IMG/VR virus record: IMGVR_UViG_3300005611_000001
Source: a virus
Taxonomy: Duplodnaviria; Caudoviricetes
Strand: one strand, 5' to 3'
Length of the DNA stretch: 64,000 nucleotides
Shown here: in pieces, positions 17,401 to 44,801 of the stretch
Numbering within the stretch: position 1 is the stretch's first letter
Layout of the letters: each line of letters opens with the position of its first letter
Made by a program: the position numbers and the translations under genes
The notes under the pieces: generated by a model
Database searches by the model: none
The model's input: only the letters and a program-made list of their open reading frames with translations
What the model was told of the DNA's origin: nothing

Positions 17401-19845
17401 CGCGCATTGCTAGACTTGCGTGAGCAATATTCTTCTAGCTATACACTTCAGAAGAGAGAAAATTCTAATAGCGGTCGCTTCGTATCTCGTGTTGCGCCTT
17501 CTGATACACTTCGTCAGACAATTGGTAAGCGCATTGTTGACCTTGCTCTGATCCCATGGATTCGTTCTAGAAAGATTTATTTCCATGCGAAGGGGCTTAA
17601 GCCTAACACCAGATTTACACCATTCTTTGATGGTGAGAAAGTGACGCAATGGTGTCGTCAAGAAGTGACCTTTGTTCAGTATTCTGATCGCACAGACGAT
17701 GCTGGTAACCAACGTACACACCAAGCAATCACTGCACACCCAAGTGGATCTACCAGCCTTATCTCTGATGAGAACGGTGAGATCATTGGTTCTTTCTTTG
17801 TGCCTAACATTCGCCCTCAGTATTATCTGCCTAAAATCAATCAGAGCGCAAGATTAAAAGCACAAAACGAACGTTATCGTTCCGGTATTCGCGAATTCAA
17901 ACTGCTTGATATTGATACAAACGATTGGGCTGCTGCAGGTAGTAAAGCATTTACTTATTACTCTGCGAGCGGTACTGTCTGGAATCAAATTACTAATTTG
18001 AATTCAACTCGCCCAAGTGAGTACAATTGGCCGATTCCTTATTGGGCGAACTTCCCGCAGTCTTTCAGTTCTAAAGAACTACAAAACTATGTAAATCAGG
18101 TTCGCGAAGCTGAAGTTAAGCTGGTCGATCCTAAACTATCTGGTAAGTATGGTCCTGGCGCTGGTGCTCTGTCTGTTGCTGCTCTTCGCGGGCTTGACAA
18201 CACTGGGCAAATGTCGCAAGTTCTTTCTGACTATATCGACGTAGATCAGAATCAGTTTGCGTCTAATATTGTTTCGACAATGACTGCGCCTCAGAATCCA
18301 ATGGCACAGACTTTCTATGTCGACAATCAATTTGGTGTTGTGTTGACGAGTGTGCAGTTGTATTTCAGAACGAAGGACACTGGTAATCTTCCTGTTTCAA
18401 TTCATCTGCGCCCCGTAGTAAATGGTCGCCCGTCGAATCACGAGATAATTCCAGATTCTCATGTGTATTTGAATCCTGGCCAAGTAACAGCAATTGGTAC
18501 TAATCCAACTCTATCGGTGATTCAAGAAAGACCTACTACATTCACCTTTACTGAGCCTGTCTATCTTGATCCATGGACTCACTACGCAATTGTTGTGAGT
18601 TCACAATCTACTGAGTATGAGCTATTCAGCGCGAAGACTCAAGAGCCTGTGTTCGGTTCTACGTCTAGAATCGTTACAACTCAGCCTGCACCTGGATCAC
18701 TCTTCTTGCCTCAGAATGGTATGTTCTGGGTTGAGACTAAAGACCAAGACCTTATGTTCAAGTTGAAGCGCGCAAGCTTTGATCTTGGCGGCGCGAGTTT
18801 GATTCTTAAGAATGCAAACTTACCTGCTAAACTTCTGAACAGCAACCCTCTGCAGACATACAGTGGCACTAGAAAAGTTTATGTGCACCAAATGTGTCAC
18901 GGGCTTGAGCCTGGCGATTTAGCGTTTATCGACAGCGCAGAGAATATTGCTGGAATTACAGCGTCAACTTATCTCAACGGCAGTCATGTAGTTGATTCTG
19001 CTGACATTCATGGATTCACTTTCAGATATGATTCTGTCGGACCAGTTGCCAACAGTTCTTCAATTGGTGGCGGTGACAAGGTGCTTTCTCGTAGAAATGT
19101 AATCTTTAATGTGACCAACCCTTACATTGAGACTGTGATTCCTAACAATACTTCTATTGATGTTTCTGCTAAATTTACTGAAGGCAAAAACATTTCTAGT
19201 ACAAGAATCACTGCTTCAGGTCGTTGGACACAAGACGAAGAATATTCGCGTGTGACTCCAAGACAGAATGTCGAGTTTGCAACACCAAAAGCAATTTACA
19301 ATGTTGCTGCTGAAACATTAAATCTTGGTGCAGGCGTTGCTTCGGCTTATGTCAAAGTGGACCTAAAGACAGCAAACAACTATGTTTCTCCTGTTGTTGA
19401 TCTGCAAAGAGCATCACTTGTTCTTGTTGGTTTCTGTCAAGACAACCCTGATGTCACACCACACATCAATCCAGTCGCTGAAACTCAACCATCGGGTGGT
19501 ACAACTGGATCGAAACACATCACTGCGCCTGTGTTCCTCGATCAAGATGCTGTTGGTATTGAAGCACGAGCGCTCGTGAACATCCCTGACGCTGCTGATA
19601 TTGTAATGTATTATCGCACAGCGTCTGCGGATGAAAACATCTATGAAAAGTATTGGAAAGTTCAATCTCCTGTAGATGACATTCCTTTTGATAATAGCAT
19701 AAGATATCGTGACGCACAATGGCTTGCTGGCGGAAAAGGTGGTACTTTGAAACCATTCAATCAAGTGCAGGTTAAATTCGTGCTTAAAGGTGCTGATGCT
19801 GCACCTTCAATGAGAAATTTGAGACTTCGTTATCTGGCGGTGTAA
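14455..19845 (+). CDS. Large baseplate/virion structural protein (VrlC-like, DUF4815 family)
   Basis: YNDDW...YHQILFNNGRALQARELTQLQ, APGADRY, YYLPRADK, PMAQTFYV and QDLMFKLKRASF are typical of this family, which follows gp8. Confidence 0.8.
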   Translation: MATQFTSSTLSGIYNDDWSEADNYHQILFNNGRALQARELTQLQTIIFNELGRLGKNIFKEGATLSAGGIAVNADYEYIKVSATNAGGAFASIPVGTVFKNPNTNVEARVLEVKPRDGVNFILDTLYVQYINSGASAIGSTPTRFGDGDVLFDQSGGGYQITTETPNATGKGVRFTVGEGDFFIMGHFVHTQEQSLILSPYTEIANATVGFKVIQEVVTVNDNSALFDNASGIVNTASPGADRYRISLVLTTQDQIASDETFVFIATVENSKVTEEIEENDAYNKIEEFVALRTKEESGNYVVNPFVINVQDAVVGDSSLELVVSPGLAYINGYRISKSSSTKLNIPRPQQTETVANDVVPIVYGNYFISDSNRGLPNLDATQVNVYNAFGAGGSAIGTARIRAVQKDGANHRVYVFDISVDSDQSLRDAKSIGTGATDIFNLVREADGAKLYGVTDNDLLFPTSRPRPESFADVILTKQIHEGSLVADGSGIITLQTLSSGQAYTDTTLWVVASADSSARAHTVGAPTNSGRDVQISGLVAGKTYEVLSYVQKTATRKAKTLTTATATLPKQTDTVNNITYYEFTVPDIFEVDSAKANSSSGINMLPSLLLDDGQRDNFYAKGRLIMNPADSAPPNLFVNYRYFARGAGGDFFDATSYGNVPVAYKDIPNHVQKDGTIVNLRNYLDFRPDETSFGSASAIFDLPRNGDNITADVSYYLPRADKLLLTQEGEFQILLGQQAGNPQYKPTPDNALEVYKILLNANTLDENDLKVTPVEHKHYTMADIAKIEAKLDDLEEYTTLSLLELEQKLNAALDSDGIERVESGSQVDDFSDQTGADTKNPDYAAAIDPESKLIRPMIDEDNIRLIIDNTLSSNILKKGDNVYINYDSAEWAVQSLASRSVKINPFGLVDNVGTIKLSPTSDEWKESVQEAEKAVSGSGRLDRKQALLWNNWSWNWFGRSLENIEFDYAQIRSPNPRIRQRALLDLREQYSSSYTLQKRENSNSGRFVSRVAPSDTLRQTIGKRIVDLALIPWIRSRKIYFHAKGLKPNTRFTPFFDGEKVTQWCRQEVTFVQYSDRTDDAGNQRTHQAITAHPSGSTSLISDENGEIIGSFFVPNIRPQYYLPKINQSARLKAQNERYRSGIREFKLLDIDTNDWAAAGSKAFTYYSASGTVWNQITNLNSTRPSEYNWPIPYWANFPQSFSSKELQNYVNQVREAEVKLVDPKLSGKYGPGAGALSVAALRGLDNTGQMSQVLSDYIDVDQNQFASNIVSTMTAPQNPMAQTFYVDNQFGVVLTSVQLYFRTKDTGNLPVSIHLRPVVNGRPSNHEIIPDSHVYLNPGQVTAIGTNPTLSVIQERPTTFTFTEPVYLDPWTHYAIVVSSQSTEYELFSAKTQEPVFGSTSRIVTTQPAPGSLFLPQNGMFWVETKDQDLMFKLKRASFDLGGASLILKNANLPAKLLNSNPLQTYSGTRKVYVHQMCHGLEPGDLAFIDSAENIAGITASTYLNGSHVVDSADIHGFTFRYDSVGPVANSSSIGGGDKVLSRRNVIFNVTNPYIETVIPNNTSIDVSAKFTEGKNISSTRITASGRWTQDEEYSRVTPRQNVEFATPKAIYNVAAETLNLGAGVASAYVKVDLKTANNYVSPVVDLQRASLVLVGFCQDNPDVTPHINPVAETQPSGGTTGSKHITAPVFLDQDAVGIEARALVNIPDAADIVMYYRTASADENIYEKYWKVQSPVDDIPFDNSIRYRDAQWLAGGKGGTLKPFNQVQVKFVLKGADAAPSMRNLRLRYLAV

Positions 19846-20076
19846 ATGTCTAAATATGTACCAGTGAAAGGCTACTCTGGCTTAGTTCGTGATACAGAAA
19901 CAAATGCACTCATAAATACTAGTGTTTCTGAGATCGAACAAGCCAGAGAGCGAAAAAAACTAAAACAACAAAAACGACAACAAGAGAACGCATTAAGTTT
20001 AAAAGTCGAGCAAATAGAAAATGATGTTTGTGAAATAAAAAATATGCTCAAGACTTTGCTTGAAAAAAACTTATAA
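19846..20076 (+). CDS. Small conserved coiled-coil protein
   Basis: VKGYSGLVRDTETNALINT followed by a coiled coil (VEQIENDVCEIKNMLKTLL), immediately after the VrlC-like gene. Confidence 0.7.
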   Translation: MSKYVPVKGYSGLVRDTETNALINTSVSEIEQARERKKLKQQKRQQENALSLKVEQIENDVCEIKNMLKTLLEKNL

Positions 20077-20079
20077 ATA
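20072..20079 (+). promoter_or_regulatory. T4-type late promoter for the giant repeat gene
   Basis: Exact TATAAATA 33 nt upstream of the ATG at 20112. Confidence 0.8.
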
Positions 20080-20111: not shown

Positions 20112-23100
20112 ATGCCAGTACGCCCACTAAAACACTTAAATGCAGGCGCGCTCAAAGAACTTCTGATTTCTGAAGAAGATTATCTTGCATATCGTGCCGG
20201 TGTTCATTTAGGTAAAATGAACATCGAAAGCGCTGCTGCATTGTCGCAAGACACGCGCGGCGAATTAGTGGGTATTTTCGAAGATACTTTCTATGGTTCT
20301 GGTTCTGGACCAGTGACAGGGCAGACATATGCTAGAGCATATTCTGTCACACATCTTTCTGATCAGTCTAGTGCGCATCAGGTCACAATTGAAGAGCCTA
20401 TAACACCTTTACCATCAACAGTAAATGTTAACGATTCGCTTGCAATTACTGTGTCTGGTAATGCGATTAGCACTGGTACTGGATATGAAGAAATTGAATA
20501 TCAGCTAGGCTTGTCTGGTACTGCAAGCTATAGCATTACAAGTGTATCTACAACACCTGCAGCAACAAACGTTGCTGGTCTTCAAGCTTCTTGGGAAGAT
20601 TATGCGACCGGAAGTCTTTCTGGTTCGTATGAAGCGACGTTTACTATTCAATTTACAGCTTCTGGTACCGTTAACGTTACGCTGAACGCATCTTCTACTG
20701 ACATAGAAAACGCTGCTCCTGGTGCTTCTGACAGTCATAACTTTTCTACAATAAGTGTACAGCCAGGTGTTCAACCAATCGCGCTTGGTACTGTCAGCGA
20801 AATTTATCAAAACAAAGTTGAAGACTATCCTCTTGATTTGACGAACAATCTCGTTCGCAACCCTTTCTATTGGGATACCTCTAGAAATGGTTTGAAAGAA
20901 ATGAGTGGCGCTGAGCTTGATGTTGTGTGCGAGCGTCTTGTTAAGAAAATCATGGCAAATGAAATGCCAGGTTCTTTCAGACTTTCTGCGTTTTCTCCTG
21001 GTGCTGATTGGCAAGTTTTTCTAGAAGATGTCTTCACTGATACCAGAGGTGACGGTACTACTTTCGACTATTCTATTTGGATTAGAACAAGTGGAACTGC
21101 ACCAACTCCTGTTAAACCAGTAGGTCCTGTCCGCACAAATAATATTTTCTCAGGAATTCGTGAATTAAGCGATCTTGAAACAGAATACACTTTCGGCGAA
21201 AGAATGAAGAAAGTGATTATGGACACTGGGATCGGCACATATGAAATGCGAAAGTCTGGTGACGGTCCTCCTACCGCACCAGGCACTTGGGTCGCAAGAG
21301 GTAGTGCTGTAGATACTCGTCAATCGTTTGCTGCTGGCGCTTCATACGAAGGCACTTCAACTTATGAAGTCCCTTATAATACTGATTATGCAGGAACTTA
21401 CACTGGTGATTATTCTGGGAATTATACTCCAAATTATGAAGGAACTTATGTAAACGAGTATTCTCCTCAGTATACAGATTCTTATACTGGCGATTATACT
21501 GGTGATTATACTGGAACGTTTGAAGGTGATTATGTAGAAACCTACACTGGTAATTTCTTGCAACAGTATACACAAGATTATACTGGTGATTATGTTGGCT
21601 CTTACACACCAACTTATGCTGGTACTGACATTGAAGAGCCATATACAACACCGTACGAAGGTCTAGAATCCGAAGAACAGTACACTGTAGATTTTGAGAC
21701 AGCAAACTATACCGGGAACTTTATCGAAGAATATTCTGGTGATTTCACTACGAATTACACAGGCGATTATGTTGCTACATACGTTGAAGAATTGTATGCA
21801 GGTAATTACGTCTCTGAATATACTGGTGATTATGAGTCACCATACACAGGCAACTTCTTAGAGACTTACGTCGATGATCAGTATACAGGCAACTATGAGT
21901 CTGACTATACTGGTGACTATGAATCTGCTTATACTGGAGATTTCACAGAAACGTATGTCGACGATCAGTACACGGGAGATTTTCTTCAGGAATATACTGG
22001 TGACTTTCTAACACAATATGTTGGTGATTTTCTTGAGACTTATGTTCAAGAGCAATATACTGGTGATTTTTCTGACACATACACTGACGACTTGTACACT
22101 GGTAATTTCTTAGAAAATTACACTGGTGATTATGAGTCTAATTACGCAACACAGTTTCAAGAGACCTATGTTGATGATCAGTACACAGGTAACTTCTTAG
22201 AAAACTACACTGGTGATTACGAGTCTGATTACACTGGTGATTTTACCGAAAATTATATTGACGATACTTACATCGGCAATTTTACCGAAGTATACACTGG
22301 TGATTATGTATCTGCATACGCTGGTGATTATATATCGAACTACATTGATGATCAATATACAGGAAATTATATTGACGCTTACACCGGCGACTTTACTGTA
22401 GTTTACAGTGGTGACTTCGAAACAAACTATGTCGATGAAATATATGCCGGTAACTTTGTAGAAGTTTACTCAGGTGATTTTACCGATAGCTATATTACAA
22501 GCTATGTCGAGACATATCTTCAAGCAGACTATACTGGTAATTATCAGTCTCCATATACTGGCGATTTCATCGAGACTTACACTGGCAACTTTGAGACGAA
22601 TTACACTCAAGAAATTTATTCTGGTGACTTTGAATCTACCTATGCTGGCGACTATGAATCTACATACACTGGTAATTATACCAGTGATTATGAAGTTGCG
22701 CCATATACAGGTGATTATCTAACAGACTACACCGGCGACTTCATCGAAACTTATACTGGTGAATTCATCGAAAACTATGTCGATGATCAGTATTCTGGTG
22801 ACTATGAATCTGCGTACACTGGTGATTTTCTTGAAACATATACTGGTGATTTTGCTCAAAACTTTATTGATGCAGTCTATACTGGTGATTACGAGTCTCC
22901 ATACACTGGCGATTTTACAGAATCGTTCGAAGGTCAATACACCGGTGATTATGAATCGTCATACACAGGTAACTTCTTAGAGACATATAGTGGTGATTAT
23001 GTAACCTCTTTTGCTGGTAATTATATCACTGATTATACAGTAGATTACACTGGTAATTTCATTGAAGAATATATCGACGATATTTACACTGGCGACTACG

Positions 23101-26100
23101 AGTCTGTGTATAGTGGCGATTTTGTTCAGTCGTTTGAAGGGCAGTATACTGGTAACTTCTTAGAAATTTATTCTGGCAATTTTGAGACAGTTTACTCAGG
23201 AGATTTCACTGAAACTTTTGAGGGGCAATACACTTCGTCTTACGAAATTGACTATACTGGTAACTTCCTAGAAGAGTATGTTGATGATCAGTATACAGGC
23301 AACTATGTTTCTGAATATACTGGCGATTTTCTTACGGACTACACTGGTAACTTTGTTGAAAATTATATCGATGGTGTTTATCAGAGCGATTACGAACAAA
23401 CTTATACAAACGAATTCGGTACAAATTATACTGGTGATTTCTTAGACACTTACATCAGCGATAACTACGAATCTTCTTACGATACAAACTACCAAGACAG
23501 TCTCTACGCTAGCCAATATACACAAGAGTATACAGGCGATTATAATCAGGCTTACATTCTAATTTTCCAAGAAGCGTATGCTCAAGCTGAACTAACATAT
23601 AGCAGCTACGAAGGTGCTGCAACATACACTGGCGATTATCTTTCGGATTATCAGTTTGATTATGAAAGAAGATATGAAAGCACCTTTACTACAATTTATA
23701 ATTCAGAACAATATGAAGCGACATTTGACAATCCCACTCCCTACGAGACTCTTTACAACACGCCTGAAGTTTACTCGCAAGGATATGTCGAAGAATACGT
23801 TGGAACTGTCACAACAGCTTATGGCGGTTCTGATTATGTTCAAGATTTTCAAGGCGGAGGTTACACAACTGGTGATCAAGATGACGTAGATACTACCACT
23901 TATTTTAGAGGTGATGTAGAGATTTACGTTGGTGATTATCTTGGATCAGGATATTACGAACAGAATTATCAGCAAGGTGATGGTAATTATGTTAATAGTC
24001 AGTATCTGCCTCCGAATACTCCCCCAGGTGTTGCCCCAAATCTCGCGGCTGGCGGCATAACATATGTCGCTGGGACAGGTGATGGAAATATTTATGCGCA
24101 AACTTATCAAAGCCCGAGCACCAGTTCGGGCGCTGACAACTTTCTAAACACTGACTATTATCTTGGCGGTGTGTCTTACGTCCACGGCTATGTGCCTGGT
24201 GGGGATGATAATTTTATAAATTATACCTCAGGGGTGCCCGTCGCTCCAGATCGTGGAACGGTTTATTATGGTCCTAGTGGCAGTTATTCCGGCGAGAGGT
24301 CAATTGACTACACAGGAACACTTTCAGGCAGTTATCAAGCTGATTATATATTCTTCTCTATATCATATACTGGGCCTACTGGTTCTTATGTTGGTGGTGG
24401 CTACGAAGAAGTATATATTTCAGAAGGCGATCCTATAATAGTGACCGGCGAACCTACTGGGTATTCAGGTCCCTTGACTGGCGATCCTGGATATCCTACC
24501 GTCACAACTTTCACAGGACCTGAAACTCTAAGTGATGATGTGGCAGTTGGTTATGTCCCTTCATATGTAGGAACTTATACACCAGCAGATTACATAGGTA
24601 CTTATGTCGGAGGTTTCGAAAGCCCAGATGCTTTAGGTTATACTGGTGATTATACTGGCAATTATGATGCTGACATCTATTCTCAGTTTTTTGAGTCCGG
24701 GCTCTTCTCTCTTGATGATATTTATGAAGGTGTGATTTATAGCCCGAATGTTTATATAGAAGGCGGCCGCGGGCCTAACCAACTTGGTATCCCGCAATTG
24801 CTCGGGACCTTCTATTATGGACCGCAAGGTGTATTTACTGTAGCATACTTAGGTCCTTTAGGTTGGTTTATTGGGTCAAACCCTGCTTTTTACATTGGTC
24901 CTTATGTGGATACTTATGAAACATTATTTGCAGAAAGAAGTAATGTATACGAACAATCTTATCAAGATGGTTACTTAGACAGCAGCTATCAAGGGGAAAA
25001 TTTCGAAAGCGGGGATGTTTTCGAAGCTCCTCCTTATTCTGGAGATGCCGCCAACTATTTTGGCATCGTCCCCGGGGGCGCCACCGTTAATTATATAACC
25101 AACCCGACTTATGGTGCTTTTCCCGATGGCGGACCCGACGCTGGATATCTCTCACTAGGTGCAGCATTTACTGACGCTATACCCTATACGTCTGGTTATA
25201 CAGACGATCTTCAACCAGGAGACGGTCAAGATAACGTCTATCTGTCTGGTTATGGCGGTGGTTATGAGACTTCAAATGAAGTTTACCAGGGTAATCTCGG
25301 CAATACTTATACAGTTATTAACGAGTATATTGGTGATTATCTCACTGGTGGTTTTATTGCGACTTTTTCCATTAGAGAACAATCGTATGGAGGTTATGAA
25401 GGATATGAAGGTAGCTATCTTGCACCTCCAATTACCACCTATTATGGTCCTTTTGGGAGCTTCGGCGCGCTTTCAGTGTATCAAGGCGTTCCCGCTTATA
25501 CTACAGGATATAGTTACCCCGACTCAATAGATTATTTGGGTTCGTATGTAGGTCCTCCCTCTACTTATTATGGTCCTGGCGGGGGTTTTAGTACACCTCC
25601 TTATGAAGCTGGTAGTACAGACCTTGAAACTTTTGCGGGGACATATGGTTCTGGCGGTGATACAACTGTATATGTCGGTCCAGGTAATCCATATGAAAGT
25701 CAAAACTTATATACTCAAAATTCATATGAAGGACCTGACCAACTTTTTGGGGCGAAGGGATTTGCTACACCTTATAGTGGTTTTGAAAACCAAACTACTT
25801 ATTACGGGCCTCTGCAATATTATATTGGGGGCGAGGAGATCATACTTCCTGGTGATATTATAATACCCGGGCAGCTGCCCGAGGTTGAGCCTCCAGCGTC
25901 TGGTACGACAGACGGTATTGCTTTTGTCGGTGATCTTGCACCAGTTACTTATGGTGCTCATTATATAAATGAAGGCCCTATAACGTATGAAGGCCCTAAA
26001 CTTTTAAATTCGAGTGGAATTTATGCAGGACCAGGCAATTTTGTGGGACCTATAGTTTATATAGGGCTTGTTTACTATGGTCCCGCCGGACAGTTCGCCG

Positions 26101-29100
26101 CTGGGACTGTGTATTCAAGTGACACGAATTATCTAGGTGAGTCTTTTGCTGTTGAATATCTTAGTGACTCATATGTAGATTATTTGACGCCCGGGCCCGC
26201 GGTAGCAAATTACAGTGGTCCTATCGGCACGTATTCCGGTAATATTGCCTATGCGGGCGCTGGGTTCATTGCTTATGAAGGTACCGATTACATTTCAGAT
26301 CACTATATCGATCCTTATGTCTCAACATATGTTAGCGATATAGTTACTCTTTATCTTGGACTTCATGATGGATCTTATTCAAGAAGCTATGTAGGAACTT
26401 ATATAGATGGGTCTGAATCTGGAGAATACATTTCAGAAGAATATGTCGGTACAGGCGACGCTTATCTAGGAAAAGTGACAATCGGACAGTTTGAAGGTGG
26501 TGGCTTCGTTGGTGGTGTCGAAGATCCATACGTTGTTTCTTATGACGAAGCAAATGCTGAAGAATTGTACACAGTTACTTATGAAGCTCAAGAGCTTGAA
26601 ACGTTTACGACTGCAGAATATGAAATAGGGCCCTTTCATCAGATCGAACAATGGCCTGATTATATGGGCCCATTGTCGGATCTTGAAGTTACATACACGG
26701 AAATATTAGGTTATTCAGAGATATACGGAAATACTTATGCTGGCGGTATTGTTAGCACATACACTCCTGCGGGCACAACTTATACAGGTAATTATACAAC
26801 ACCTGTACCTCGAGGTGTAGGAGATTATATTTTTGGTACAGCTAGTTATGATAACCAAGCATATCTTAGCCCCTTTCCTCAAGTCACCTATGTAGGTCCA
26901 ACGGGAATCTTTACAGCTGTTACTGATTATCAAGCTGGCTATGTTGGATTCATTCAAGCTAACTATGGTGGTTACTTAAGACAAATAGTGGGTCCTCCAA
27001 CTTTGGGCGATTATGCCACTAATTTTACTGCTGGTGTTTACGAACAAACATTTTCTTCTGGTCCTTATATCACAGAAGCGAATATTGTTTTCGAACAATC
27101 ATATGTGACGCTTCTAGATGCTGATTACCAGACTGCATACACAGGAACGTTTGCTGCAAACTATGAAGCAACTTATATTGGTGATTATCTAACAGATTAT
27201 GTTAGTGCAACAGGAAAAAATGTTGTCTACACTGGTAATTTTGTTGTCGATTACCTGACAGATTCTTATATCACAGATTACGAGCAAGAAGTTCCTGTCG
27301 ATCAATACGGCGGCGAATATTCAGAGACATATGAGTCTGATTATGAGGGTACTTATTCTGGCACTTATACTTCAGGGTATGAGGGAATCTATACTGGTAA
27401 CTTCACAGTAACATATTCTGGCGACTACATTACCGATTACATTGAAATTTACAGCGGCGATTTTGAAGGTCAATACACCGGTGACTTCTTAGACACCTAT
27501 ACTGGTAACTTCACTGATAGTTACGCTTCTGATTACGAAGATGTGTTTGAAGGTCAATACACTGGTGATTTCCTTGAAACGTTCACTGACTCTTTTGAAG
27601 ATATTTATGTTCAAGAGCAATACACCGGTAACTTCTTAGAAAACTATACTGGTGATTATGTTTCTGATTACACTGGTGATTATGAGTCTGATTACGTTGA
27701 CGATCAGTATAGCGGAAACTATGTTTCTGACTACACTGGTAACTTCTTGCAGAACTTCCTTGGTACTTACACTGGTGATTTCCTTCAAGTTTATACAGGA
27801 AATTATGAAACGGATTATGAGCAAGACGTTTATGCTGGTAATTACATTTCCGATTACACTGGTGATTTTGTAAATACTTACACTGGTAACTTTGTCGAAA
27901 ATTATGTTGACGATTTGTACACTGGTAACTTCTTAGAAGAATACGTTGGTAACTTTACTGACAACTTTGAAGGGCAGTATACTGGTGAATATCAATCTGA
28001 TTATATCGGTAACTTTGTTGAAGAATATGTTGGCAACTTCTTAGATACGTTCGAAGGTCAATACACCGGCGATTATGCTAGCGACTATGAAGGTAACTAT
28101 ACTTCGGATTACGAGACAAATTACGAAGTCACTTTCTTGGGTGTTTACTCCGGCGATTTCTTGGCGAGCTATACCGGCAACTTCATTGAAGAATATACTG
28201 GTAACTTCATAGCGCCGTTTGAAGGTCAATATACAGGTGACTATGTAGACGAATATTCTGGTAATTTTGTCGAAGAATATATCGGCGATTTCCTTGACAT
28301 TTTTGCTGGTCAGTATACCGGTGATTATGTTGATCAGTACACTGGCAACTTCATTGAAGAATACACTGGTGATTTTGTTGACGACTTTGAAGGTAGCTAT
28401 ACCGGCAATTATGTTTCTGATTACACTGGTAACTTTACTCAGAACTACACTGGTGACTTCACAGAAATCTTCGAAGGGCAGTATAGCGGCAACTATGTTT
28501 CTGGATATGAAGGCAACTTCATTGAAGAATACACTGGTGACTTTACTGACAACTTTGAAGGGCAGTATACAGGCAACTTCTTAGACACCTACACTGGAAA
28601 CTATACCGAAGAGTACACTGGTGACTTCACAGAAGTCTTTGAAGGGCAATATGCTACTGACTATGAAAGCGAATACACTGGTAACTTCGAAACAATCTAC
28701 ACTGGCGACTTTACCGATAACTTCCTGGGTGAATATACTGGTGAATTCCAAGATACTTTTGAAGGTCAGTACAGTGCAGAATTTACTGAAATTTACGAAG
28801 GACCCTTCGTACTAGTTTACACTGGTGATTTCGAAGAGCCTTATGAAGGGCTTTACACAGGCGATTTCATCGACAACTACAGTGGTGAATATGCGTCGGA
28901 TTACACTGGTGACTTCACTGCTCAGTTCGAAGGTCAATACACAGGTAACTTTGTAGTTGAATACACAGGTAACTTTATCGATCAGTATTCGGGCGACTTC
29001 ACAGAAACATTTGAAGGTCAGTACGTTGATCAATATCTGACTGATTATGTTGCTGAGTTTGTTGACACTTTCGCAGCACCGCAATATACAGGCGATTACG

Positions 29101-31856
29101 AGTCTACCTACACTGGTGATTTCTTAACTCAATACACTGGTGATTTTTCTGATACTTATGTCGACGATCAATACACTGGTAACTTTGCTGTAGTATACTC
29201 TGGTAACTTCACAGAAACTTATGAAGATCGAGCAACTATCGTTTTCGATGCTGTACAATATACTGGTGAATTCGAAGAAAACTATGAAACCGATACTTAC
29301 ACTGGTAATTTTGAAACAAATTACACGGGCGACTTCTTAGACACTTACACAGCAGAGTTTACAAATAACTTCATTTCTGCACAGTACGAAGCATCGTTTG
29401 TCGAGACATACGTCGGCGATTTCTTGTTGGCGTACACTGGTAACTTTGTAGCATCATTTGAAGCCGCTGTGCAATATGAAACTTCGTTTGAATCAAACTA
29501 TGTTGATAATTTATACACAGGCGATGCTGTAGTACAATACACAGGAAACTTCGATTTCTCGTTTGAAGGTCAGTACACAGGCGACTACACTTCTGGATAC
29601 GAGGGTAATTTTGCAGGGCAATACACTGGTGACTTCTTAGTTGGCTTTGCTGGTGTTTACACAGGCGACTTCACTCAAATTTATACCGGCGATTTCTCTC
29701 AGACATACACCGGTGATTTTACTGCAAACTTCCAAGCAACTTACACAGGCAACTTTACACAGAATTTCGCAGGTGTTTATACCGGCGATTTCTCTCAGAC
29801 ATACACCGGTGATTTTGTCGGTACTGATCTAGAAACTTATACTAGTCCTGATGCTTGGACTTCATATTTTGAAAGCCTTAGTGCCCCAGTTTATTACTGG
29901 CGGGAGTTTAACGGTGTACCTACTACTCTTTATTGGAATAGTACGTTTATAGGAGTCCCACCTCCTAGCAGCCCTGCTACATGGACTACTGGCGGATATG
30001 AATATCAGCGCGCAATCAATCCTTTTACAACAGCCACTACAAAGGCGGGAACTGATAGGTGGTATGCTGTAAGAAGACGCTCTGTTTCTGTTAACTACAC
30101 CGGCGATTACTCTGCTGCTTTTGCTGAAAACTTTGTAGCGTCTGGAACAACGCAGTTCACTGGACCTAGTTACACTGGTGATTTTACATCACCTTTCTCT
30201 GCTCCAATTTACACTGGTGATTTTGCTGAAAACTTTGTAGCGTCTGGAACAACGCAGTTCACTGGTAACTTTACAGCAAGCTATGAAGCACCCACATATA
30301 TTGGTAACTTCTTAGCAACATACACTGGTGACTATGCAAGCAATTTTGATTCTCCTTTCCAGAATACTTTTGCAGGCTCTTCATACACTAGTACGTTTGT
30401 CGAAACTTATCAAGGTGATTTTTCGCTTTCTTTCGAAGGGCAATACCTAGGTAATTATCTGAGCCAGTACGAAGGCTCTTATCTTGGTGACTTCGTTCAA
30501 AGCTATACAGGCAATTTTGCAGTTGAATATACTGGTAACTTTATTGCTCAGTTTGAAGGGCAGTACACAGGAAACTTTGCTGCAGAATATACTGGTAATT
30601 TCTTAGCAACTTTTACTTCTGACAATCCTCAAGACTACACAGGCAATTATATAGGTACTTTTGCAGCAAGCTTTAACGCAGAATATACTGGTGATTTCGT
30701 TCTAGAGTACACTGGTGACTTCTTAGAAGATTATCAAGCAGACTTTGTTGAAATCTTCGAAGGTCAATACGTTGGTGATTTCTCAGATACTTATGAAGGC
30801 AATTTCCTTACTGACTATACTGGTAACTTTACTCAAATCTTTGAGGGGCAGTACACAGGTAACTTCATCGACATTTATGTCGCTGATTACGAGACTACAT
30901 ACATTGATGATCAGTACACTGGTAATTTCATAGAGACATATGAAAGCGACTATGAATCTCCTTATCAAGGCGATTTCACTGCAGGATTTACTGATCAGTA
31001 TACGGGCAATTACCTTGATGAATATACAGGTGATTATGCTGGCACATATACTTCAGAATACGCTTCTGATTATGCTGGTACATACGTCGGAACTTTCGTA
31101 GAAATTTACGGCGGCGCTTATCAGTCTGAATACACTGCTGAATTTACAGAGAATTTTGAAGGTCAATATACCGGCAACTTCTTAGAAGAGTATGTTGGAA
31201 ACTTTGAAACAGTTTATACTGGTGACTTTACAGAAATCTTTGAAGGCCAATATACAGGTGATTTCCTTGAGACATATATCGGAAATTATCAAGATGAATA
31301 CACTGGAGATTTCATTCAAAATTATGAGCAAGATTATTCTGGCAATTTCCAAAGCATTTACACTGGTAACTTTACTGAAGCGTATAGCGGCGACTTTGTA
31401 GCTACATATACTGAAACAAATACGATTGATTACACTGGTAATTACCTTGCTACATTCAGCGATACATATAGCGGAAATTACACACCAGATTATGAAGCAG
31501 ATGGTGTTAATGAAGCTTATGCACAAGAGTATATTGAGCAAGATTACGAATCAGAATATCTGTCTGATTTTGACGGCAGCATATATACAAGAACAGTAGA
31601 GTCTACTTACGAAGGCGCTGCACAAGGGTTACCGTTTAGTGCAGACTATAGTGGTGCTGAAATCACTGAAGATTACACTAGTGATTTCGAAGGCGACGAT
31701 GACATTGAAACTTATCAGGACGATTATACAGGGATTAATTATGAAACCGCATATGCGGATGACATTGAAGTAACAGTTGCTTATCTAAGAGAAGCAGTTC
31801 TTTCTTCAACGCCAACAACAATAGAAACTTACACACTTTATGTTCGTGTTGCTTAA
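20112..31856 (+). CDS. Giant (3914 aa) acidic Tyr/Gly/Thr repeat virion fibre-like protein
   Basis: Single uninterrupted ORF with its own late promoter. The N-terminus has three ..P....G(A/L/I)(K/R)E(L/M) segments, then thousands of residues of YTG[DN][FY] repeats, ending TYTLYVRVA. Confidence 0.9.
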   Translation: MPVRPLKHLNAGALKELLISEEDYLAYRAGVHLGKMNIESAAALSQDTRGELVGIFEDTFYGSGSGPVTGQTYARAYSVTHLSDQSSAHQVTIEEPITPLPSTVNVNDSLAITVSGNAISTGTGYEEIEYQLGLSGTASYSITSVSTTPAATNVAGLQASWEDYATGSLSGSYEATFTIQFTASGTVNVTLNASSTDIENAAPGASDSHNFSTISVQPGVQPIALGTVSEIYQNKVEDYPLDLTNNLVRNPFYWDTSRNGLKEMSGAELDVVCERLVKKIMANEMPGSFRLSAFSPGADWQVFLEDVFTDTRGDGTTFDYSIWIRTSGTAPTPVKPVGPVRTNNIFSGIRELSDLETEYTFGERMKKVIMDTGIGTYEMRKSGDGPPTAPGTWVARGSAVDTRQSFAAGASYEGTSTYEVPYNTDYAGTYTGDYSGNYTPNYEGTYVNEYSPQYTDSYTGDYTGDYTGTFEGDYVETYTGNFLQQYTQDYTGDYVGSYTPTYAGTDIEEPYTTPYEGLESEEQYTVDFETANYTGNFIEEYSGDFTTNYTGDYVATYVEELYAGNYVSEYTGDYESPYTGNFLETYVDDQYTGNYESDYTGDYESAYTGDFTETYVDDQYTGDFLQEYTGDFLTQYVGDFLETYVQEQYTGDFSDTYTDDLYTGNFLENYTGDYESNYATQFQETYVDDQYTGNFLENYTGDYESDYTGDFTENYIDDTYIGNFTEVYTGDYVSAYAGDYISNYIDDQYTGNYIDAYTGDFTVVYSGDFETNYVDEIYAGNFVEVYSGDFTDSYITSYVETYLQADYTGNYQSPYTGDFIETYTGNFETNYTQEIYSGDFESTYAGDYESTYTGNYTSDYEVAPYTGDYLTDYTGDFIETYTGEFIENYVDDQYSGDYESAYTGDFLETYTGDFAQNFIDAVYTGDYESPYTGDFTESFEGQYTGDYESSYTGNFLETYSGDYVTSFAGNYITDYTVDYTGNFIEEYIDDIYTGDYESVYSGDFVQSFEGQYTGNFLEIYSGNFETVYSGDFTETFEGQYTSSYEIDYTGNFLEEYVDDQYTGNYVSEYTGDFLTDYTGNFVENYIDGVYQSDYEQTYTNEFGTNYTGDFLDTYISDNYESSYDTNYQDSLYASQYTQEYTGDYNQAYILIFQEAYAQAELTYSSYEGAATYTGDYLSDYQFDYERRYESTFTTIYNSEQYEATFDNPTPYETLYNTPEVYSQGYVEEYVGTVTTAYGGSDYVQDFQGGGYTTGDQDDVDTTTYFRGDVEIYVGDYLGSGYYEQNYQQGDGNYVNSQYLPPNTPPGVAPNLAAGGITYVAGTGDGNIYAQTYQSPSTSSGADNFLNTDYYLGGVSYVHGYVPGGDDNFINYTSGVPVAPDRGTVYYGPSGSYSGERSIDYTGTLSGSYQADYIFFSISYTGPTGSYVGGGYEEVYISEGDPIIVTGEPTGYSGPLTGDPGYPTVTTFTGPETLSDDVAVGYVPSYVGTYTPADYIGTYVGGFESPDALGYTGDYTGNYDADIYSQFFESGLFSLDDIYEGVIYSPNVYIEGGRGPNQLGIPQLLGTFYYGPQGVFTVAYLGPLGWFIGSNPAFYIGPYVDTYETLFAERSNVYEQSYQDGYLDSSYQGENFESGDVFEAPPYSGDAANYFGIVPGGATVNYITNPTYGAFPDGGPDAGYLSLGAAFTDAIPYTSGYTDDLQPGDGQDNVYLSGYGGGYETSNEVYQGNLGNTYTVINEYIGDYLTGGFIATFSIREQSYGGYEGYEGSYLAPPITTYYGPFGSFGALSVYQGVPAYTTGYSYPDSIDYLGSYVGPPSTYYGPGGGFSTPPYEAGSTDLETFAGTYGSGGDTTVYVGPGNPYESQNLYTQNSYEGPDQLFGAKGFATPYSGFENQTTYYGPLQYYIGGEEIILPGDIIIPGQLPEVEPPASGTTDGIAFVGDLAPVTYGAHYINEGPITYEGPKLLNSSGIYAGPGNFVGPIVYIGLVYYGPAGQFAAGTVYSSDTNYLGESFAVEYLSDSYVDYLTPGPAVANYSGPIGTYSGNIAYAGAGFIAYEGTDYISDHYIDPYVSTYVSDIVTLYLGLHDGSYSRSYVGTYIDGSESGEYISEEYVGTGDAYLGKVTIGQFEGGGFVGGVEDPYVVSYDEANAEELYTVTYEAQELETFTTAEYEIGPFHQIEQWPDYMGPLSDLEVTYTEILGYSEIYGNTYAGGIVSTYTPAGTTYTGNYTTPVPRGVGDYIFGTASYDNQAYLSPFPQVTYVGPTGIFTAVTDYQAGYVGFIQANYGGYLRQIVGPPTLGDYATNFTAGVYEQTFSSGPYITEANIVFEQSYVTLLDADYQTAYTGTFAANYEATYIGDYLTDYVSATGKNVVYTGNFVVDYLTDSYITDYEQEVPVDQYGGEYSETYESDYEGTYSGTYTSGYEGIYTGNFTVTYSGDYITDYIEIYSGDFEGQYTGDFLDTYTGNFTDSYASDYEDVFEGQYTGDFLETFTDSFEDIYVQEQYTGNFLENYTGDYVSDYTGDYESDYVDDQYSGNYVSDYTGNFLQNFLGTYTGDFLQVYTGNYETDYEQDVYAGNYISDYTGDFVNTYTGNFVENYVDDLYTGNFLEEYVGNFTDNFEGQYTGEYQSDYIGNFVEEYVGNFLDTFEGQYTGDYASDYEGNYTSDYETNYEVTFLGVYSGDFLASYTGNFIEEYTGNFIAPFEGQYTGDYVDEYSGNFVEEYIGDFLDIFAGQYTGDYVDQYTGNFIEEYTGDFVDDFEGSYTGNYVSDYTGNFTQNYTGDFTEIFEGQYSGNYVSGYEGNFIEEYTGDFTDNFEGQYTGNFLDTYTGNYTEEYTGDFTEVFEGQYATDYESEYTGNFETIYTGDFTDNFLGEYTGEFQDTFEGQYSAEFTEIYEGPFVLVYTGDFEEPYEGLYTGDFIDNYSGEYASDYTGDFTAQFEGQYTGNFVVEYTGNFIDQYSGDFTETFEGQYVDQYLTDYVAEFVDTFAAPQYTGDYESTYTGDFLTQYTGDFSDTYVDDQYTGNFAVVYSGNFTETYEDRATIVFDAVQYTGEFEENYETDTYTGNFETNYTGDFLDTYTAEFTNNFISAQYEASFVETYVGDFLLAYTGNFVASFEAAVQYETSFESNYVDNLYTGDAVVQYTGNFDFSFEGQYTGDYTSGYEGNFAGQYTGDFLVGFAGVYTGDFTQIYTGDFSQTYTGDFTANFQATYTGNFTQNFAGVYTGDFSQTYTGDFVGTDLETYTSPDAWTSYFESLSAPVYYWREFNGVPTTLYWNSTFIGVPPPSSPATWTTGGYEYQRAINPFTTATTKAGTDRWYAVRRRSVSVNYTGDYSAAFAENFVASGTTQFTGPSYTGDFTSPFSAPIYTGDFAENFVASGTTQFTGNFTASYEAPTYIGNFLATYTGDYASNFDSPFQNTFAGSSYTSTFVETYQGDFSLSFEGQYLGNYLSQYEGSYLGDFVQSYTGNFAVEYTGNFIAQFEGQYTGNFAAEYTGNFLATFTSDNPQDYTGNYIGTFAASFNAEYTGDFVLEYTGDFLEDYQADFVEIFEGQYVGDFSDTYEGNFLTDYTGNFTQIFEGQYTGNFIDIYVADYETTYIDDQYTGNFIETYESDYESPYQGDFTAGFTDQYTGNYLDEYTGDYAGTYTSEYASDYAGTYVGTFVEIYGGAYQSEYTAEFTENFEGQYTGNFLEEYVGNFETVYTGDFTEIFEGQYTGDFLETYIGNYQDEYTGDFIQNYEQDYSGNFQSIYTGNFTEAYSGDFVATYTETNTIDYTGNYLATFSDTYSGNYTPDYEADGVNEAYAQEYIEQDYESEYLSDFDGSIYTRTVESTYEGAAQGLPFSADYSGAEITEDYTSDFEGDDDIETYQDDYTGINYETAYADDIEVTVAYLREAVLSSTPTTIETYTLYVRVA
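21345..23660 (+). repeat. First Y-x-G-[DN]-[FY] repeat block (8- and 13-residue units)
   Basis: Example: YTGNFLENYTGDYESDYTGDFTENYIDDTYIGNFTEVYTGDY. DNA units such as tacactggtgat(t/a) recur. Boundaries approximate. Confidence 0.9.
27127..31745 (+). repeat. Second Y-x-G-[DNE]-[FY] repeat block, often with an FEGQ linker
   Basis: Example: FEGQYTGNFLDTYTGNYTEEYTGDFTEVFEGQY. Interrupted once at about 29840-30090. Boundaries approximate. Confidence 0.9.
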
Positions 31857-31870: not shown

Positions 31871-32329
31871 ATGGGTTACAAATATTTAGATAATGCTTTT
31901 TGGGAAGCAGATGACAGATCGGTAATGAAATGTATTCGTTTGACTGATCAACCTGATGGTAAGCAGAAAAAAGAAGTTCTACAACTTGCTAGAATTCGAT
32001 CCGATGGTTCTGAATGCCCCATGTACAAAGAAGTTGTTCAAACTTGGGGCATTCAAAAAATCGATGAGAATACAAATGAGCGCAAAAAAAGAAAAGAAAC
32101 AGAAGCGCGCGAAGCTAGAGCAAAGCACGAGCAAAAGAAAAAGTCTGTTGAACTAGAACAGCTTTTCAATCTGAAACTCCAGGCTTTTGAAATCGAAGAA
32201 GTAAAAAATTCTGATGATCGTGCTATGAGATCCAAAATTCGTCGAGCAAAAAACGTGATTGAAATGCAAGCTTTGACCTCTATTTTGATTGCAAAAGAAC
32301 TTGGTTATTTTGGAGAAAAAAATGAGTGA
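31871..32329 (+). CDS. Basic hypothetical protein, putative fibre assembly chaperone
   Basis: Lys/Arg-rich helical protein directly after the giant acidic gene. The function is inferred from position and charge only. Confidence 0.5.
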   Translation: MGYKYLDNAFWEADDRSVMKCIRLTDQPDGKQKKEVLQLARIRSDGSECPMYKEVVQTWGIQKIDENTNERKKRKETEAREARAKHEQKKKSVELEQLFNLKLQAFEIEEVKNSDDRAMRSKIRRAKNVIEMQALTSILIAKELGYFGEKNE

Positions 32330-42283: not shown

Positions 42284-42598
42284 ATGCCAACTATAAAAAT
42301 TTCTCAGTTAGACGAGTTTTCTGGAACACCAGATAGTTCTGATTTGCTTCCACTTGTAGATTTAAGTGAAACGCAAACTAAAAGAATCTCAATACGAGAT
42401 TTAGCCTCTTATATGGACAGCGCAGAAAACGCGACTAATGCAATTGTGGCTTTAAGAGCAGACACAACTGAAAATGCAATTTATGTTTCAGGAGACTCGT
42501 CTGGCATCTGGAGTGGTGATCCACCAGAAACTGTAAATGATGCAATTGATAGACTGGCTGCACTTATTCAATCTTTGAATGGTGGTACTGGCGCATAA
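42284..42598 (+). CDS. Short fibre-family protein (KISQL N-terminal motif)
   Basis: MPTIKISQL...DLLPLVDLSETQTKRISI. Short Ala-X-Y stretch. Confidence 0.6.
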   Translation: MPTIKISQLDEFSGTPDSSDLLPLVDLSETQTKRISIRDLASYMDSAENATNAIVALRADTTENAIYVSGDSSGIWSGDPPETVNDAIDRLAALIQSLNGGTGA

Positions 42599-42602
42599 TC
42601 AG

Positions 42603-42610
42603 TATAAATA
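42603..42610 (+). promoter_or_regulatory. T4-type late promoter
   Basis: Exact TATAAATA 26 nt upstream of the ATG at 42636. Confidence 0.8.
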
Positions 42611-42635
42611 AAGAAAACTCTTTTGAGGAATTACG

Positions 42636-43340: not shown

Positions 43341-43343
43341 ATC

Positions 43344-44798: not shown

Positions 44799-44801
44799 AT
44801 A
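44794..44801 (+). promoter_or_regulatory. T4-type late promoter
   Basis: Exact TATAAATA overlapping the upstream stop, 25 nt before the ATG at 44826. Confidence 0.8.

What the first reader, a model, noticed from the sequence alone, without database searches (positions are those of the whole stretch)
20112..31856. 3914-aa hyper-acidic protein built from Y-x-G-[DNE]-[FY] octapeptides: candidate very long triple beta-helix fibre
Seen: roughly 200 (manual estimate) units such as YTGDFLET, mixed with 12-13-residue variants (YVDDQ, FEGQ linkers). The repeat blocks are nearly free of Lys, Arg, His, Cys and Trp, and the gene has its own late promoter. Known: T4 gp5C forms a triple beta-helix from VxGxxxxx octapeptides, and the same register appears in the gp5C gene here. 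Inference: aromatic-x-Gly octamers could form a trimeric beta-prism with a Tyr/Phe core and an acidic, cation-binding surface. At about 0.48 nm per strand this would be on the order of 100-200 nm long. I do not recognise a characterised family for this repeat.
Basis: partly seen in the sequence, partly recalled or inferred. Interest (0 to 1): 0.85.

Follow-up and report, generated by a model that had tools for sequence, protein, structure and literature searches.

The report
Giant aromatic-repeat phage fibre protein
A marine T4-like phage spends 11.7 kb on one 3914-residue, extremely acidic protein with a tyrosine or phenylalanine at every fourth position; it is an oversized member of an uncharacterised but widespread family that sits where such phages keep their host-recognition fibres, and its fold is probably a beta-helix rod whose chain number is unresolved.

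Summary
ORF 20112-31856 (+) encodes 3914 aa (Tyr 13.4 %, Thr 12.1 %, Gly 11.9 %; 625 acidic and 53 basic residues). It has 179 [YF]xG[DNE][FY] units and a TATAAATA late promoter 33 nt upstream.

An aromatic residue falls at every 4th position. Octads follow Y-x-G-[DN]-[FY]-x-x-x. The real unit is three octads plus a 4- or 5-residue linker, giving 28 or 29 aa.

The protein belongs to a family of at least 364 clusters, with no Pfam, PHROG or PDB match. Members share a roughly 260-aa N-terminal domain and a C-terminal ETYTLYVR[IV][AS]. The middle varies from about 300 to 3500 aa and flips charge: the phage C48C1 homologue is basic. The gene lies just after VrlC/DUF4815, in the published "host recognition cluster".

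A virion fibre is likely from context only. The triple beta-helix is neither shown nor excluded, because the homotrimer fold gave no verdict. AlphaFold2 folds one chain as a beta-helix with one coil per 28 aa (pLDDT 83.5).

Other first-stage notes of this scan on the same genome, unchecked, had already noted the aromatic-every-fourth pattern, the central block and the Trp-rich insert.

The parts
20072..20079 (+). T4-type late promoter TATAAATA, 33 nt upstream of the start codon
   Evidence: 13 sites in the window against 3.1 expected. No further site occurs until 32976.
20112..31856 (+). Giant gene: 3914 aa, about 436 kDa, pI at or below 4.05 (the routine's floor)
20112..21401 (+). N-terminal domain (aa 1-430). 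The family-defining core is aa 1-60 plus about 245-405. An Ig-like beta-sandwich insert (about aa 84-220) is present only in the closest clade.
   Evidence: Alignments A1 and A3. The profile search found 364 clusters. AF2 with a 74-sequence alignment gave pLDDT 89.9. The insert matches cohesin/pilin-like sandwiches at Z about 8.6, which is generic. The core has no informative fold or sequence match.
21402..23651 (+). Repeat block 1 (aa 431-1180). The 29-aa unit is a 5-residue linker (YVDDQ type) plus three octads Y-x-G-[DN]-[FY]-x-x-x. It has 155 acidic and 0 basic residues.
23652..27281 (+). Central non-periodic Gly/Pro/Tyr-rich block (aa 1181-2390) with 20 [YF]xGP motifs. P0003, P0004, P0036 and P0044 have blocks that look similar by eye; the close relative P0005 appears to lack one.
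   Evidence: Only weak pairwise similarity to the P0004 block.
27282..29849 (+). Repeat block 2 (aa 2391-3246). The 28-aa unit is an FEGQ linker plus three octads.
   Evidence: The AF2 model of aa 2703-2954 has one coil per 28 aa, pLDDT 83.5.
29850..30089 (+). Trp-rich, net basic insert of 80 aa (aa 3247-3326) within the shaft. An apparent counterpart lies in P0005 (aa 1790-1862), judged by shared short motifs read by eye, not by an alignment score.
   Evidence: The sequences were read. The pairwise test used wrong coordinates and does not bear on this.
30090..31511 (+). Repeat block 3 (aa 3327-3800), with 28-aa units
31512..31856 (+). C-terminal tail ending in IETYTLYVRVA, the family-wide terminal motif ETYTLYVR[IV][AS]
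   Evidence: almost every full-length relative of 700-4046 aa ends in this motif. C48C1 does too.
19846..20076 (+). 76-aa ORF between VrlC and the giant gene. It is homologous to the small 'virion structural protein, similar to gp106' of Synechococcus phage S-RIM2 and marks the start of the fibre region.
   Evidence: with the annotation.
14455..19845 (+). VrlC-like DUF4815 baseplate protein (1796 aa), the upstream border of the host recognition cluster
   Evidence: The cluster is defined in PMC7029224.
31871..33754 (+). Three small genes that follow the family gene in every relative examined (152, 256 and 232 aa). The first has a Lys/Glu-rich region that looks helical by composition. The second has nucleotide-sugar-transferase-like features. 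The third is unassigned.
   Evidence: Synteny. Alignment A4. Language-model leads only. No Pfam or PHROG hit.

Best explanation
The gene encodes a late-expressed virion fibre or adhesin of the host recognition cluster of an uncultured marine T4-like phage.

Shown:
- It is the largest or near-largest member of a large, unannotated family with a fixed architecture: a conserved N-terminal domain, aromatic-every-fourth-residue repeats, often a Gly/Pro-rich middle and small inserted domains, more repeats, and a conserved terminal strand ETYTLYVR[IV][AS].
- It lies directly after VrlC and the gp106-like gene.

Inferred:
- The N-terminal domain anchors the protein to the baseplate periphery or to another fibre.
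- The repeats form a stiff beta-helical rod whose structural unit is the 28/29-aa super-repeat. Three octads form the three sides of one coil, G-[DN] sits at the corners, the Tyr/Phe ladders stack coil on coil, and the linker lengthens one side.
- Most likely each chain makes its own solenoid, and such solenoids may still bundle.
- The outward-facing positions are free to vary. This would explain why length and charge differ so widely between relatives, and it would make the rod surface and the inserted domains the host-contacting parts.
- The conserved C-terminal strand docks onto a conserved partner.

The function-level claim (virion fibre of the recognition cluster) is more likely, about 0.65, than the combined function-plus-fold claim scored here.
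For: Context:
- The gene order is gp48, gp53, gp5 parts, gp25, gp6, a gp8-like gene, VrlC/DUF4815, the 76-aa gp106-like gene, the giant gene, Tfa-like and tail-fibre-like genes, then a gp13-like adaptor.
- The same order occurs in C48C1, L002, L003 and a 155-kb contig.
- PMC7029224 and PMC12379486 define the VrlC-to-gp14 interval as the host recognition cluster, holding the tail fibres and many structural variants.
- The gene has its own late promoter.

Family:
- 364 clusters at E <= 1e-3 and 139 at E <= 1e-30.
- The terminal motif is near-universal, while length (700-4046 aa) and charge vary.

Fold:
- Periods of 29 and 28 aa dominate.
- There are 31 and 64 runs of exactly three octads in P0001 and P0005.
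- The three octads differ from one another in the same way in both proteins.
- The AF2 single-chain model has pLDDT 83.5 and pTM 0.74, with strands of 14 and 10 residues and 2-residue turns, repeating every 28 aa.
- That model aligns to right-handed beta-helix proteins over about 190-200 of 252 residues at Z 8-9. Three unnamed viral clusters match at TM 0.57-0.64.
- Synonymous codon use shows selection on the protein.
Against: - There is no direct evidence that the protein is in virions. No cultured phage with proteomics carries the family: only C48C1 among 50,697 phage records has it, annotated as hypothetical.
- The N-terminal core resembles no known baseplate-binding domain.
- AF2 is known to give confident solenoids for idealised repeats (my own knowledge), and the model was made from a single sequence.
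- ESMFold2 did not fold the same region: pLDDT 32-43 in the trimer job.
- The fold matches at Z 8-9 are in the range the tool itself calls generic.
- Conservation of both ends is unusual for a receptor-binding fibre, where the tip usually varies.
- Other family members have 12-residue rather than 28/29-residue periods, so the coil geometry cannot be uniform across the family.
Confidence: 0.4

Rival explanations
1. The octads form a gp5C-type homotrimeric, intertwined triple beta-helix with an aromatic core, giving a fibre of about 125 nm for the repeat blocks. The linkers form periodic bulges after each full turn of every chain.
For: - The octad Y-x-G-[DN]-[FY]-x-x-x fits the gp5C register. 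The phage's own gp5C-like protein reads VTGDFNVDVGGNYTLNVAGD, and VxGxxxxx is the published gp5 motif (PMC4576200).
- The gp5 helix holds buried glutamates and a Mg2+ ion, so inward-facing Glu is not disqualifying.
- Three octads equal one full turn of a chain in such a helix, so a three-octad super-repeat is not absurd.
- Most phage fibres are trimers (my own knowledge).
Against: - There is no Gp5_C or other Pfam hit.
- Linkers of 4-5 residues interrupt the register after every third octad.
- The three octads are not equivalent to each other.
- The homotrimer prediction gave no support, though the tool says this is not evidence against binding.
- AF2 builds a confident single-chain coil of 28 aa.
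- The helix would be more than ten times longer than gp5's. That paper calls gp5's helix the longest and most regular known of its kind, at about 150-190 residues.
Confidence: 0.22
2. The protein is made late but is not a stable virion appendage. It might be an amyloid-like or matrix protein released at lysis, an assembly scaffold, or a decoy.
For: - There are no virion proteomics for any family member.
- The weak Foldseek rows for the repeat model include the curli subunit CsgA and FapC.
- Published relatives of such phages carry curli-secretion homologues of unknown function (PMC7029224).
Against: - By eye, the N-terminus read looks polar and has no obvious signal peptide. No predictor was run.
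- The gene sits inside the baseplate/fibre operon with conserved synteny.
- A conserved globular N-domain and a conserved terminal strand suggest defined protein-protein contacts.
- The Foldseek rows have E > 0.5.
Confidence: 0.1
3. The repeats are largely disordered. The protein acts as a flexible polyanionic brush or spacer rather than as a folded rod.
For: - ESMFold2 gave pLDDT 32-43.
- The charge is extreme and the sequence complexity is low.
Against: - About 20 % aromatic residues at strictly periodic positions, plus position-specific conservation kept against synonymous drift, point to a folded repeat.
- AF2 predicts beta-strands with pLDDT 83.5.
- The homologues are basic or neutral.
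Confidence: 0.06

Closest known systems
T4 gp5 C-terminal triple-stranded beta-helix (VxGxxxxx)
   Same: It has an octapeptide with a hydrophobic residue, any residue, Gly, then Asp/Asn. This phage's own gp5C-like protein has VTGDF and VGGNY octads. It is a beta-rich rod in a contractile-tail phage, and interior acidic residues and a cation are tolerated (PMC4576200).
   Different: - There is no HMM match.
- The hydrophobic positions are aromatic.
- Octads are grouped in threes with linkers, giving a 28/29-aa unit.
- The repeat region is more than ten times longer.
- Trimer formation is untested in effect.
- AF2 prefers a single-chain coil.
Single-chain parallel beta-helix proteins (phage tailspikes, SufD-type, autotransporter passengers)
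   Same: The AF2 model aligns over about 190-200 residues at Z 8-9. The sequence period equals the coil length.
   Different: The coil sequence is far more regular. There is no sequence similarity, no catalytic groove is known, and the Z values are in the generic range.
T4 long tail fibre proximal half, gp34 (recalled from memory, a lead only)
   Same: It is a long fibre protein with both ends engaged by partners: the baseplate at the N-terminus and the hinge at the C-terminus. That would explain two conserved ends and a variable shaft. It is also the first gene of a fibre cassette followed by smaller proteins and a Tfa-like chaperone.
   Different: There is no sequence or fold match. No PHROG tail-fibre family hits the giant protein. 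The repeat chemistry is different.
Bacterial ice-nucleation proteins and curli/Fap amyloid solenoids (recalled from memory, a lead only)
   Same: They have hierarchical short repeats with Tyr ladders and Thr/Ser/Gly-rich beta-solenoid coils. CsgA and FapC appear among the weak Foldseek rows.
   Different: E-values are above 0.5, and there is no shared motif. By eye the N-terminus shows no obvious signal peptide (no predictor was run). The genomic context also differs.
Giant fibre-like proteins of cultured cyanomyoviruses (the S-RIM2 1912-aa 'structural protein'; S-CREM2 ORF85, a 'long tail fiber' found in the virion proteome)
   Same: The S-RIM2 protein lies in the same region, just after the VrlC-like and gp106-like genes, and has a tetrapeptide repeat (VTGN)n with a hydrophobic residue every 4th position and Gly-[ND]. 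S-CREM2 ORF85 (coordinates 42559-57474) shows that very large fibre proteins of this kind of phage can be virion components (PMC10665884).
   Different: They are not homologous to the N- or C-terminal family signatures. The tblastn match is to low-complexity repeats only. No homology to S-CREM2 ORF85 was tested.

Membership tests
gp5C-type triple-stranded beta-helix (Pfam Gp5_C repeat) | Octapeptide motif: hydrophobic residue, any residue, Gly, then usually Asp/Asn | tested here: met
   179 [YF]xG[DNE][FY] matches. The same register occurs in the window's gp5C-like ORF.
gp5C-type triple-stranded beta-helix (Pfam Gp5_C repeat) | Match to the family profile | tested here: not met
   No Pfam family matched at E <= 0.01 for the whole protein or at E <= 1 for a 301-aa repeat segment.
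gp5C-type triple-stranded beta-helix (Pfam Gp5_C repeat) | Uninterrupted octad register over many turns | tested here: not met
   Runs of octads stop at three (31 runs of three, one of four). Linkers of 4 or 5 residues follow.
gp5C-type triple-stranded beta-helix (Pfam Gp5_C repeat) | Three intertwined chains | tested here: inconclusive
   Homotrimer of aa 2703-2882: score 0.00, pLDDT 32-43. The tool states this is no verdict.
Single-chain beta-solenoid / parallel beta-helix | Sequence period equal to one coil and constant along the rod | tested here: met
   Autocorrelation peaks at 29 and 28 aa. The AF2 strand pattern repeats every 28 aa.
Single-chain beta-solenoid / parallel beta-helix | Predicted or solved structure with stacked parallel coils | tested here: inconclusive
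   The AF2 single-sequence model has pLDDT 83.5 and Z 8-9 to beta-helix proteins, which is generic. ESMFold2 had low confidence. The coordinates could not be inspected.
Phage tail fibre families (PHROG tail fibre groups, T4 gp34/gp37 type) | Profile match to a tail-fibre family | tested here: not met
   No PHROG matched at E <= 0.001 for the whole protein, and only chance-level rows appeared for segments. By contrast, the neighbouring 778-aa protein hits ten families, seven of them tail-fibre or baseplate families.
Phage tail fibre families (PHROG tail fibre groups, T4 gp34/gp37 type) | Location in the fibre/host-recognition module and late transcription | tested here: met
   The gene lies between VrlC/DUF4815 and the gp13-like gene and has a late promoter. 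The cluster is defined in PMC7029224.
Phage tail fibre families (PHROG tail fibre groups, T4 gp34/gp37 type) | Presence in the virion | not testable with these tools
   No cultured relative has proteomics. C48C1 is annotated 'hypothetical protein'.
The new family itself (N-domain, aromatic tetrads, ETYTLYVR terminus) | N-terminal core, aromatic residue every 4th position, and the terminal motif | tested here: met
   The window protein ends in IETYTLYVRVA.

The most novel reading that the evidence does not exclude
The family represents a new fibre architecture: an 'aromatic-tetrad' beta-helix with Tyr/Phe ladders. Its length (0.3-3.5 thousand residues) and surface charge (pI about 4 to about 10) would be tuned freely by repeat gain and loss. 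It may be modified by the co-transcribed transferase-like and oxygenase-like genes, and in this phage it would form the longest regular beta-helical rod known in any virus.
Probability: 0.25. Interest if true: 0.8.

Novelty: new variant of a known kind. Interest (0 to 1): 0.6.

Why it matters
Uncultured marine T4-like phages are abundant. Some notes on this genome point to traits reported for SAR11 and cyanobacterial myophages, which I did not test. How these phages recognise hosts is largely unknown, because their fibre genes cannot be annotated (PMC7029224 says so).

This work defines a family of at least 364 clusters in the recognition cluster, with clear end signatures and a new repeat. 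That gives annotators a handle. It gives structural biologists a very regular, easily truncated repeat to solve. It may also provide a natural system in which fibre length and charge vary by repeat number.

A phage of this size devoting 11.7 kb to one gene implies a strong selective payoff.

Tried and rejected
- Homotrimer prediction of aa 2703-2882 gave no verdict: score 0.00. It counts neither for nor against the trimer.
- Pfam, PHROG and PDB sequence searches gave nothing usable. This covered the whole protein, six segments and the 74-member N-domain alignment.
- Foldseek/VIA/atlas/AFDB searches with both models gave only generic matches. These were beta-helix hits for the repeat model, Ig-like sandwich hits for the N-domain insert, and unnamed relatives.
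- megablast of 5 kb and 12 kb of the window against 50,697 phage records found no close relative. The only hit was a 583-nt stretch in C48C1 at 77.6 %.
- tblastn of the C-terminal 135 aa found nothing.
- The 68 tblastn hits of a repeat segment were mostly Synechococcus phages. For S-RIM2, which I inspected, the match was to an unrelated (VTGN)n fibre repeat. I rejected these hits as evidence of homology.
- No whole genome is held for this window.
- A scan of prokaryote genomes gave one hit, on a MAG contig labelled Thiotrichaceae. I take it as probably a binned phage contig and draw no host inference.
- I considered S-CREM2 as the source phage and rejected it: its clade has 48-52 % GC, against about 40 % here.
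- Literature searches for C48C1 and for the motif strings found nothing relevant.
- I dropped a rough packing argument against an aromatic core in a gp5-sized prism, because the gp5 interior has large cavities.
- My first pairwise test of the Trp-rich insert used wrong coordinates.
Full report
**1. Observation**

The window holds an uninterrupted ORF at 20112-31856 on the + strand, encoding 3914 aa. The product is about 436 kDa. Tyr is 13.4 %, Thr 12.1 %, Gly 11.9 %, Asp 8.2 % and Glu 7.8 %. There are 625 acidic and 53 basic residues.

The pattern [YF]xG[DNE][FY] occurs 179 times. Successive matches lie 8 (90 times), 12 (27 times) or 13 (21 times) residues apart. The repeat blocks are essentially free of K, R, H, C and W. 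Block 431-1180 has 155 acidic and no basic residues.

A T4-type late promoter TATAAATA lies at 20072-20079. The window has 13 such sites against 3.1 expected, and none lies inside the gene.

**2. Anatomy**

The repeat has three levels.

- First level: an aromatic residue at every fourth position. This holds for 153 of 178, 190 of 213 and 99 of 106 aromatic-to-aromatic spacings in the three blocks.
- Second level: tetrads alternate between a turn type Y-x-G-[DN] and a strand type [FY]-x-x-x, which gives the octad.
- Third level: octads come in sets of exactly three, followed by a 5-residue linker (YVDDQ type, 29-aa unit, block 431-1180) or a 4-residue linker (FEGQ, 28-aa unit, blocks 2391-3246 and 3327-3800).

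There are 31 runs of three octads and one of four in this protein. Its relative P0005 has 64 runs of three and none longer.

The three octads of a unit are not equivalent. They differ in the same way in both proteins. In the 28-mer, for example, the second turn is G-N in 100 % and 97 % of units, and the third is G-D in 79 % and 87 %.

Two segments break the repeats. Residues 1181-2390 are a non-periodic Gly/Pro/Tyr-rich block with 20 [YF]xGP motifs. Residues 3247-3326 are a Trp-rich, net basic insert. P0005 appears to carry the same insert at 1790-1862, judged by shared short motifs read by eye.

At the DNA level the arrays are old. Tandem Repeats Finder reports only short arrays at 63-91 % match. 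Conserved Tyr and Gly use synonymous codons freely. Between 28-aa units, only 51 % of identical residues share a codon. The periodicity is therefore held by selection on the protein.

**3. Relatives**

The protein has no Pfam, PHROG or PDB sequence match, whole or in pieces.

Among 50,697 phage records only phage C48C1 (OQ984149, filed under Kyanoviridae) has a homologue. It is a syntenic 3347-aa 'hypothetical protein' that ends in the same ETYTLYVRVA. Its repeat is an Arg-rich version (FxGNYxRx, pI 9.7).

Metagenomes hold closer relatives:

- P0005: 3237 aa, 59 % identity in the N-domain, and apparently no central block.
- P0003 and P0004: 2503 and 2654 aa.

An exhaustive profile search with the N-terminal domain found 364 clusters at E <= 1e-3 and 139 at E <= 1e-30. 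Nearly every full-length member (700-4046 aa) ends in ETYTLYVR[IV][AS]. Members have 12-20 % aromatic residues, and their acidic and basic content varies widely. Member names and sources point to marine and aquatic samples, including Tara Oceans viral-size fractions.

Near-identical members of one cluster (99.8-100 %) differ by in-frame indels of 25-59 aa. This could be population variation or assembly collapse.

**4. Context**

The gene order is:

- gp48-like, gp53-like, a tail protein, the gp5 N-terminal part, an amidase, a gp5C-like protein and gp25-like;
- gp6, a gp8-like wedge protein and VrlC/DUF4815;
- a 76-aa homologue of the S-RIM2 'virion structural protein similar to gp106';
- the giant gene;
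- three small genes of 152, 256 and 232 aa;
- a Tfa-like chaperone;
- proteins of 375, 778 and 402 aa, of which the 778-aa one hits seven PHROG tail-fibre or baseplate families;
- a gp13-like adaptor.

The same order, including the three small genes, holds in C48C1, L002 and a 155-kb contig.

Zaragoza-Solas et al. (PMC7029224) name the VrlC-to-gp14 interval the host recognition cluster of pelagi- and cyanomyophages. They say the genes after VrlC are the tail fibres in most genomes. PMC12379486 finds structural variants concentrated there.

This is positional evidence for a virion fibre, not proof.

**5. Fold**

The requested homotrimer test (three copies of aa 2703-2882, ESMFold2) gave score 0.00 and pLDDT 32-43. 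The tool says this is no verdict.

AlphaFold2 on a single chain (aa 2703-2954, no alignment) gave mean pLDDT 83.5 and pTM 0.74. Strands of 14 and 10 residues are joined by 2-residue turns at the G-D of the first and third octads. The pattern repeats exactly every 28 residues.

The model aligns to right-handed beta-helix proteins over about 190-200 residues at Z 8-9, a range the tool calls generic. Foldseek finds nothing below E 0.5, and its weak rows are mostly beta-solenoids. Three unnamed viral clusters match at TM 0.57-0.64.

A constant sequence period equal to the coil length, together with non-equivalent sides, is what a single-chain solenoid predicts.

A gp5C-type intertwined trimer is not excluded:

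- The octad has the gp5 register, and this phage's gp5C-like protein even reads VTGDFNVDVGGNYTLN.
- The gp5 helix tolerates buried Glu and Mg2+ (PMC4576200).
- Three octads are one turn of a chain in such a helix.

Against it stand the linkers after every third octad, the lack of any profile match, and the required length. That length would be more than ten times that of gp5, which the paper calls the longest and most regular helix of its kind.

Rod length for the about 2075 repeat residues would be about 35 nm as single-chain coils (about 73 coils at 0.48 nm). It would be about 125 nm as a triple helix (about 259 octad equivalents at 0.48 nm). Both figures are my arithmetic from the block sizes.

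I rate the single-chain solenoid at about 0.4, the triple helix at about 0.22, and other folds at the remainder.

**6. The two ends**

AF2 with a 74-sequence alignment models the N-terminal 430 aa at pLDDT 89.9. Residues 84-220 form an Ig-like sandwich (Z about 8.6 to cohesins and pilins, generic) that only the nearest clade has. The family core (aa 1-60 plus 245-405) matches nothing informative.

Both ends are conserved while the middle is free. I take this to mean that both ends contact conserved partners, as in a proximal half-fibre. This is an inference only.

**7. Neighbours**

The 152-aa protein has a conserved N-terminal part and a Lys/Glu-rich region that looks helical by composition. 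The 256-aa protein has language-model features of nucleotide-diphospho-sugar transferases (score 0.97). The 232-aa protein has only weak leads, at 0.87-0.88, to 2OG-Fe(II) and Asp/Asn hydroxylases. None passes Pfam. Modification of the Thr/Asp/Asn-rich repeats is a lead, not a finding.

**8. Verdict**

- A fibre-like structural role is likely from context.
- The resemblance to the gp5C register is real.
- The trimeric triple helix is unproven and is not the favoured fold.
- The acidic, cation-binding surface is specific to this clade, not to the family.

The protein is an oversized member of a large, undescribed family, so I class it as a new variant of a known kind (phage fibre or beta-helix repeat protein).

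First-stage notes of this scan, on another window over the same stretch and on this window, had already recorded the aromatic-every-fourth pattern, the central block and the Trp-rich insert. I checked these myself, as listed under the earlier findings.

Noticed in passing
window 5512-9745: The gp5 functions seem split over three ORFs: an N-terminal gp5-like part (289 aa), a 634-aa protein with a C-terminal amidase domain, and a 487-aa gp5C-like beta-helix protein with a long basic tail.
   Followed up: partly
window 19846-20076: A 76-aa ORF was missed by the 80-aa ORF listing. It is homologous (29-36 %) to the small 'virion structural protein similar to gp106' of S-RIM2 and to equivalents in C48C1 and L005, and always lies right after VrlC.
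   Followed up: yes
window 31871-33754: Three small genes (152, 256 and 232 aa) always follow the family gene. The 256-aa one looks like a nucleotide-sugar transferase by language-model features (0.97). The 232-aa one has only weak oxygenase-like leads. A TATAAATA at 32976 lies inside the 256-aa gene, just upstream of the 232-aa start.
   Followed up: partly
L001 14668-24711 (phage C48C1 CDS0201): The basic homologue carries several inserted globular domains between repeat blocks. It also has an exact internal duplication of about 75 aa (RKTRHRSYLYY...SGQY twice), which is either a recent duplication or an assembly artefact.
   Followed up: no
proteins P0044, P0163 and P0166 (metagenome relatives): Members that are 99.8-100 % identical differ by in-frame indels of 25-59 aa in the repeat region.
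   Followed up: partly
L004 7423-13161 (S-RIM2 structural protein): A cultured cyanophage fibre protein, in the same region just after the VrlC-like and gp106-like genes, has a (V/L)TG(N/D) tetrapeptide run. This is a simpler 'hydrophobic every fourth residue plus Gly-Asn/Asp' repeat and may be a structural cousin.
   Followed up: no
window 35331-37667: A 778-aa protein has strong PHROG tail-fibre matches (3e-86) and a weak pectate-lyase-like hit. The phage therefore also has conventional fibres downstream of the giant gene.
   Followed up: no
L007 (MAG contig DKOR01000032.1, labelled Thiotrichaceae): This is the only prokaryote-genome hit for the family. It lies near the end of a 32-kb contig and is probably a phage contig binned into the MAG.
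   Followed up: no
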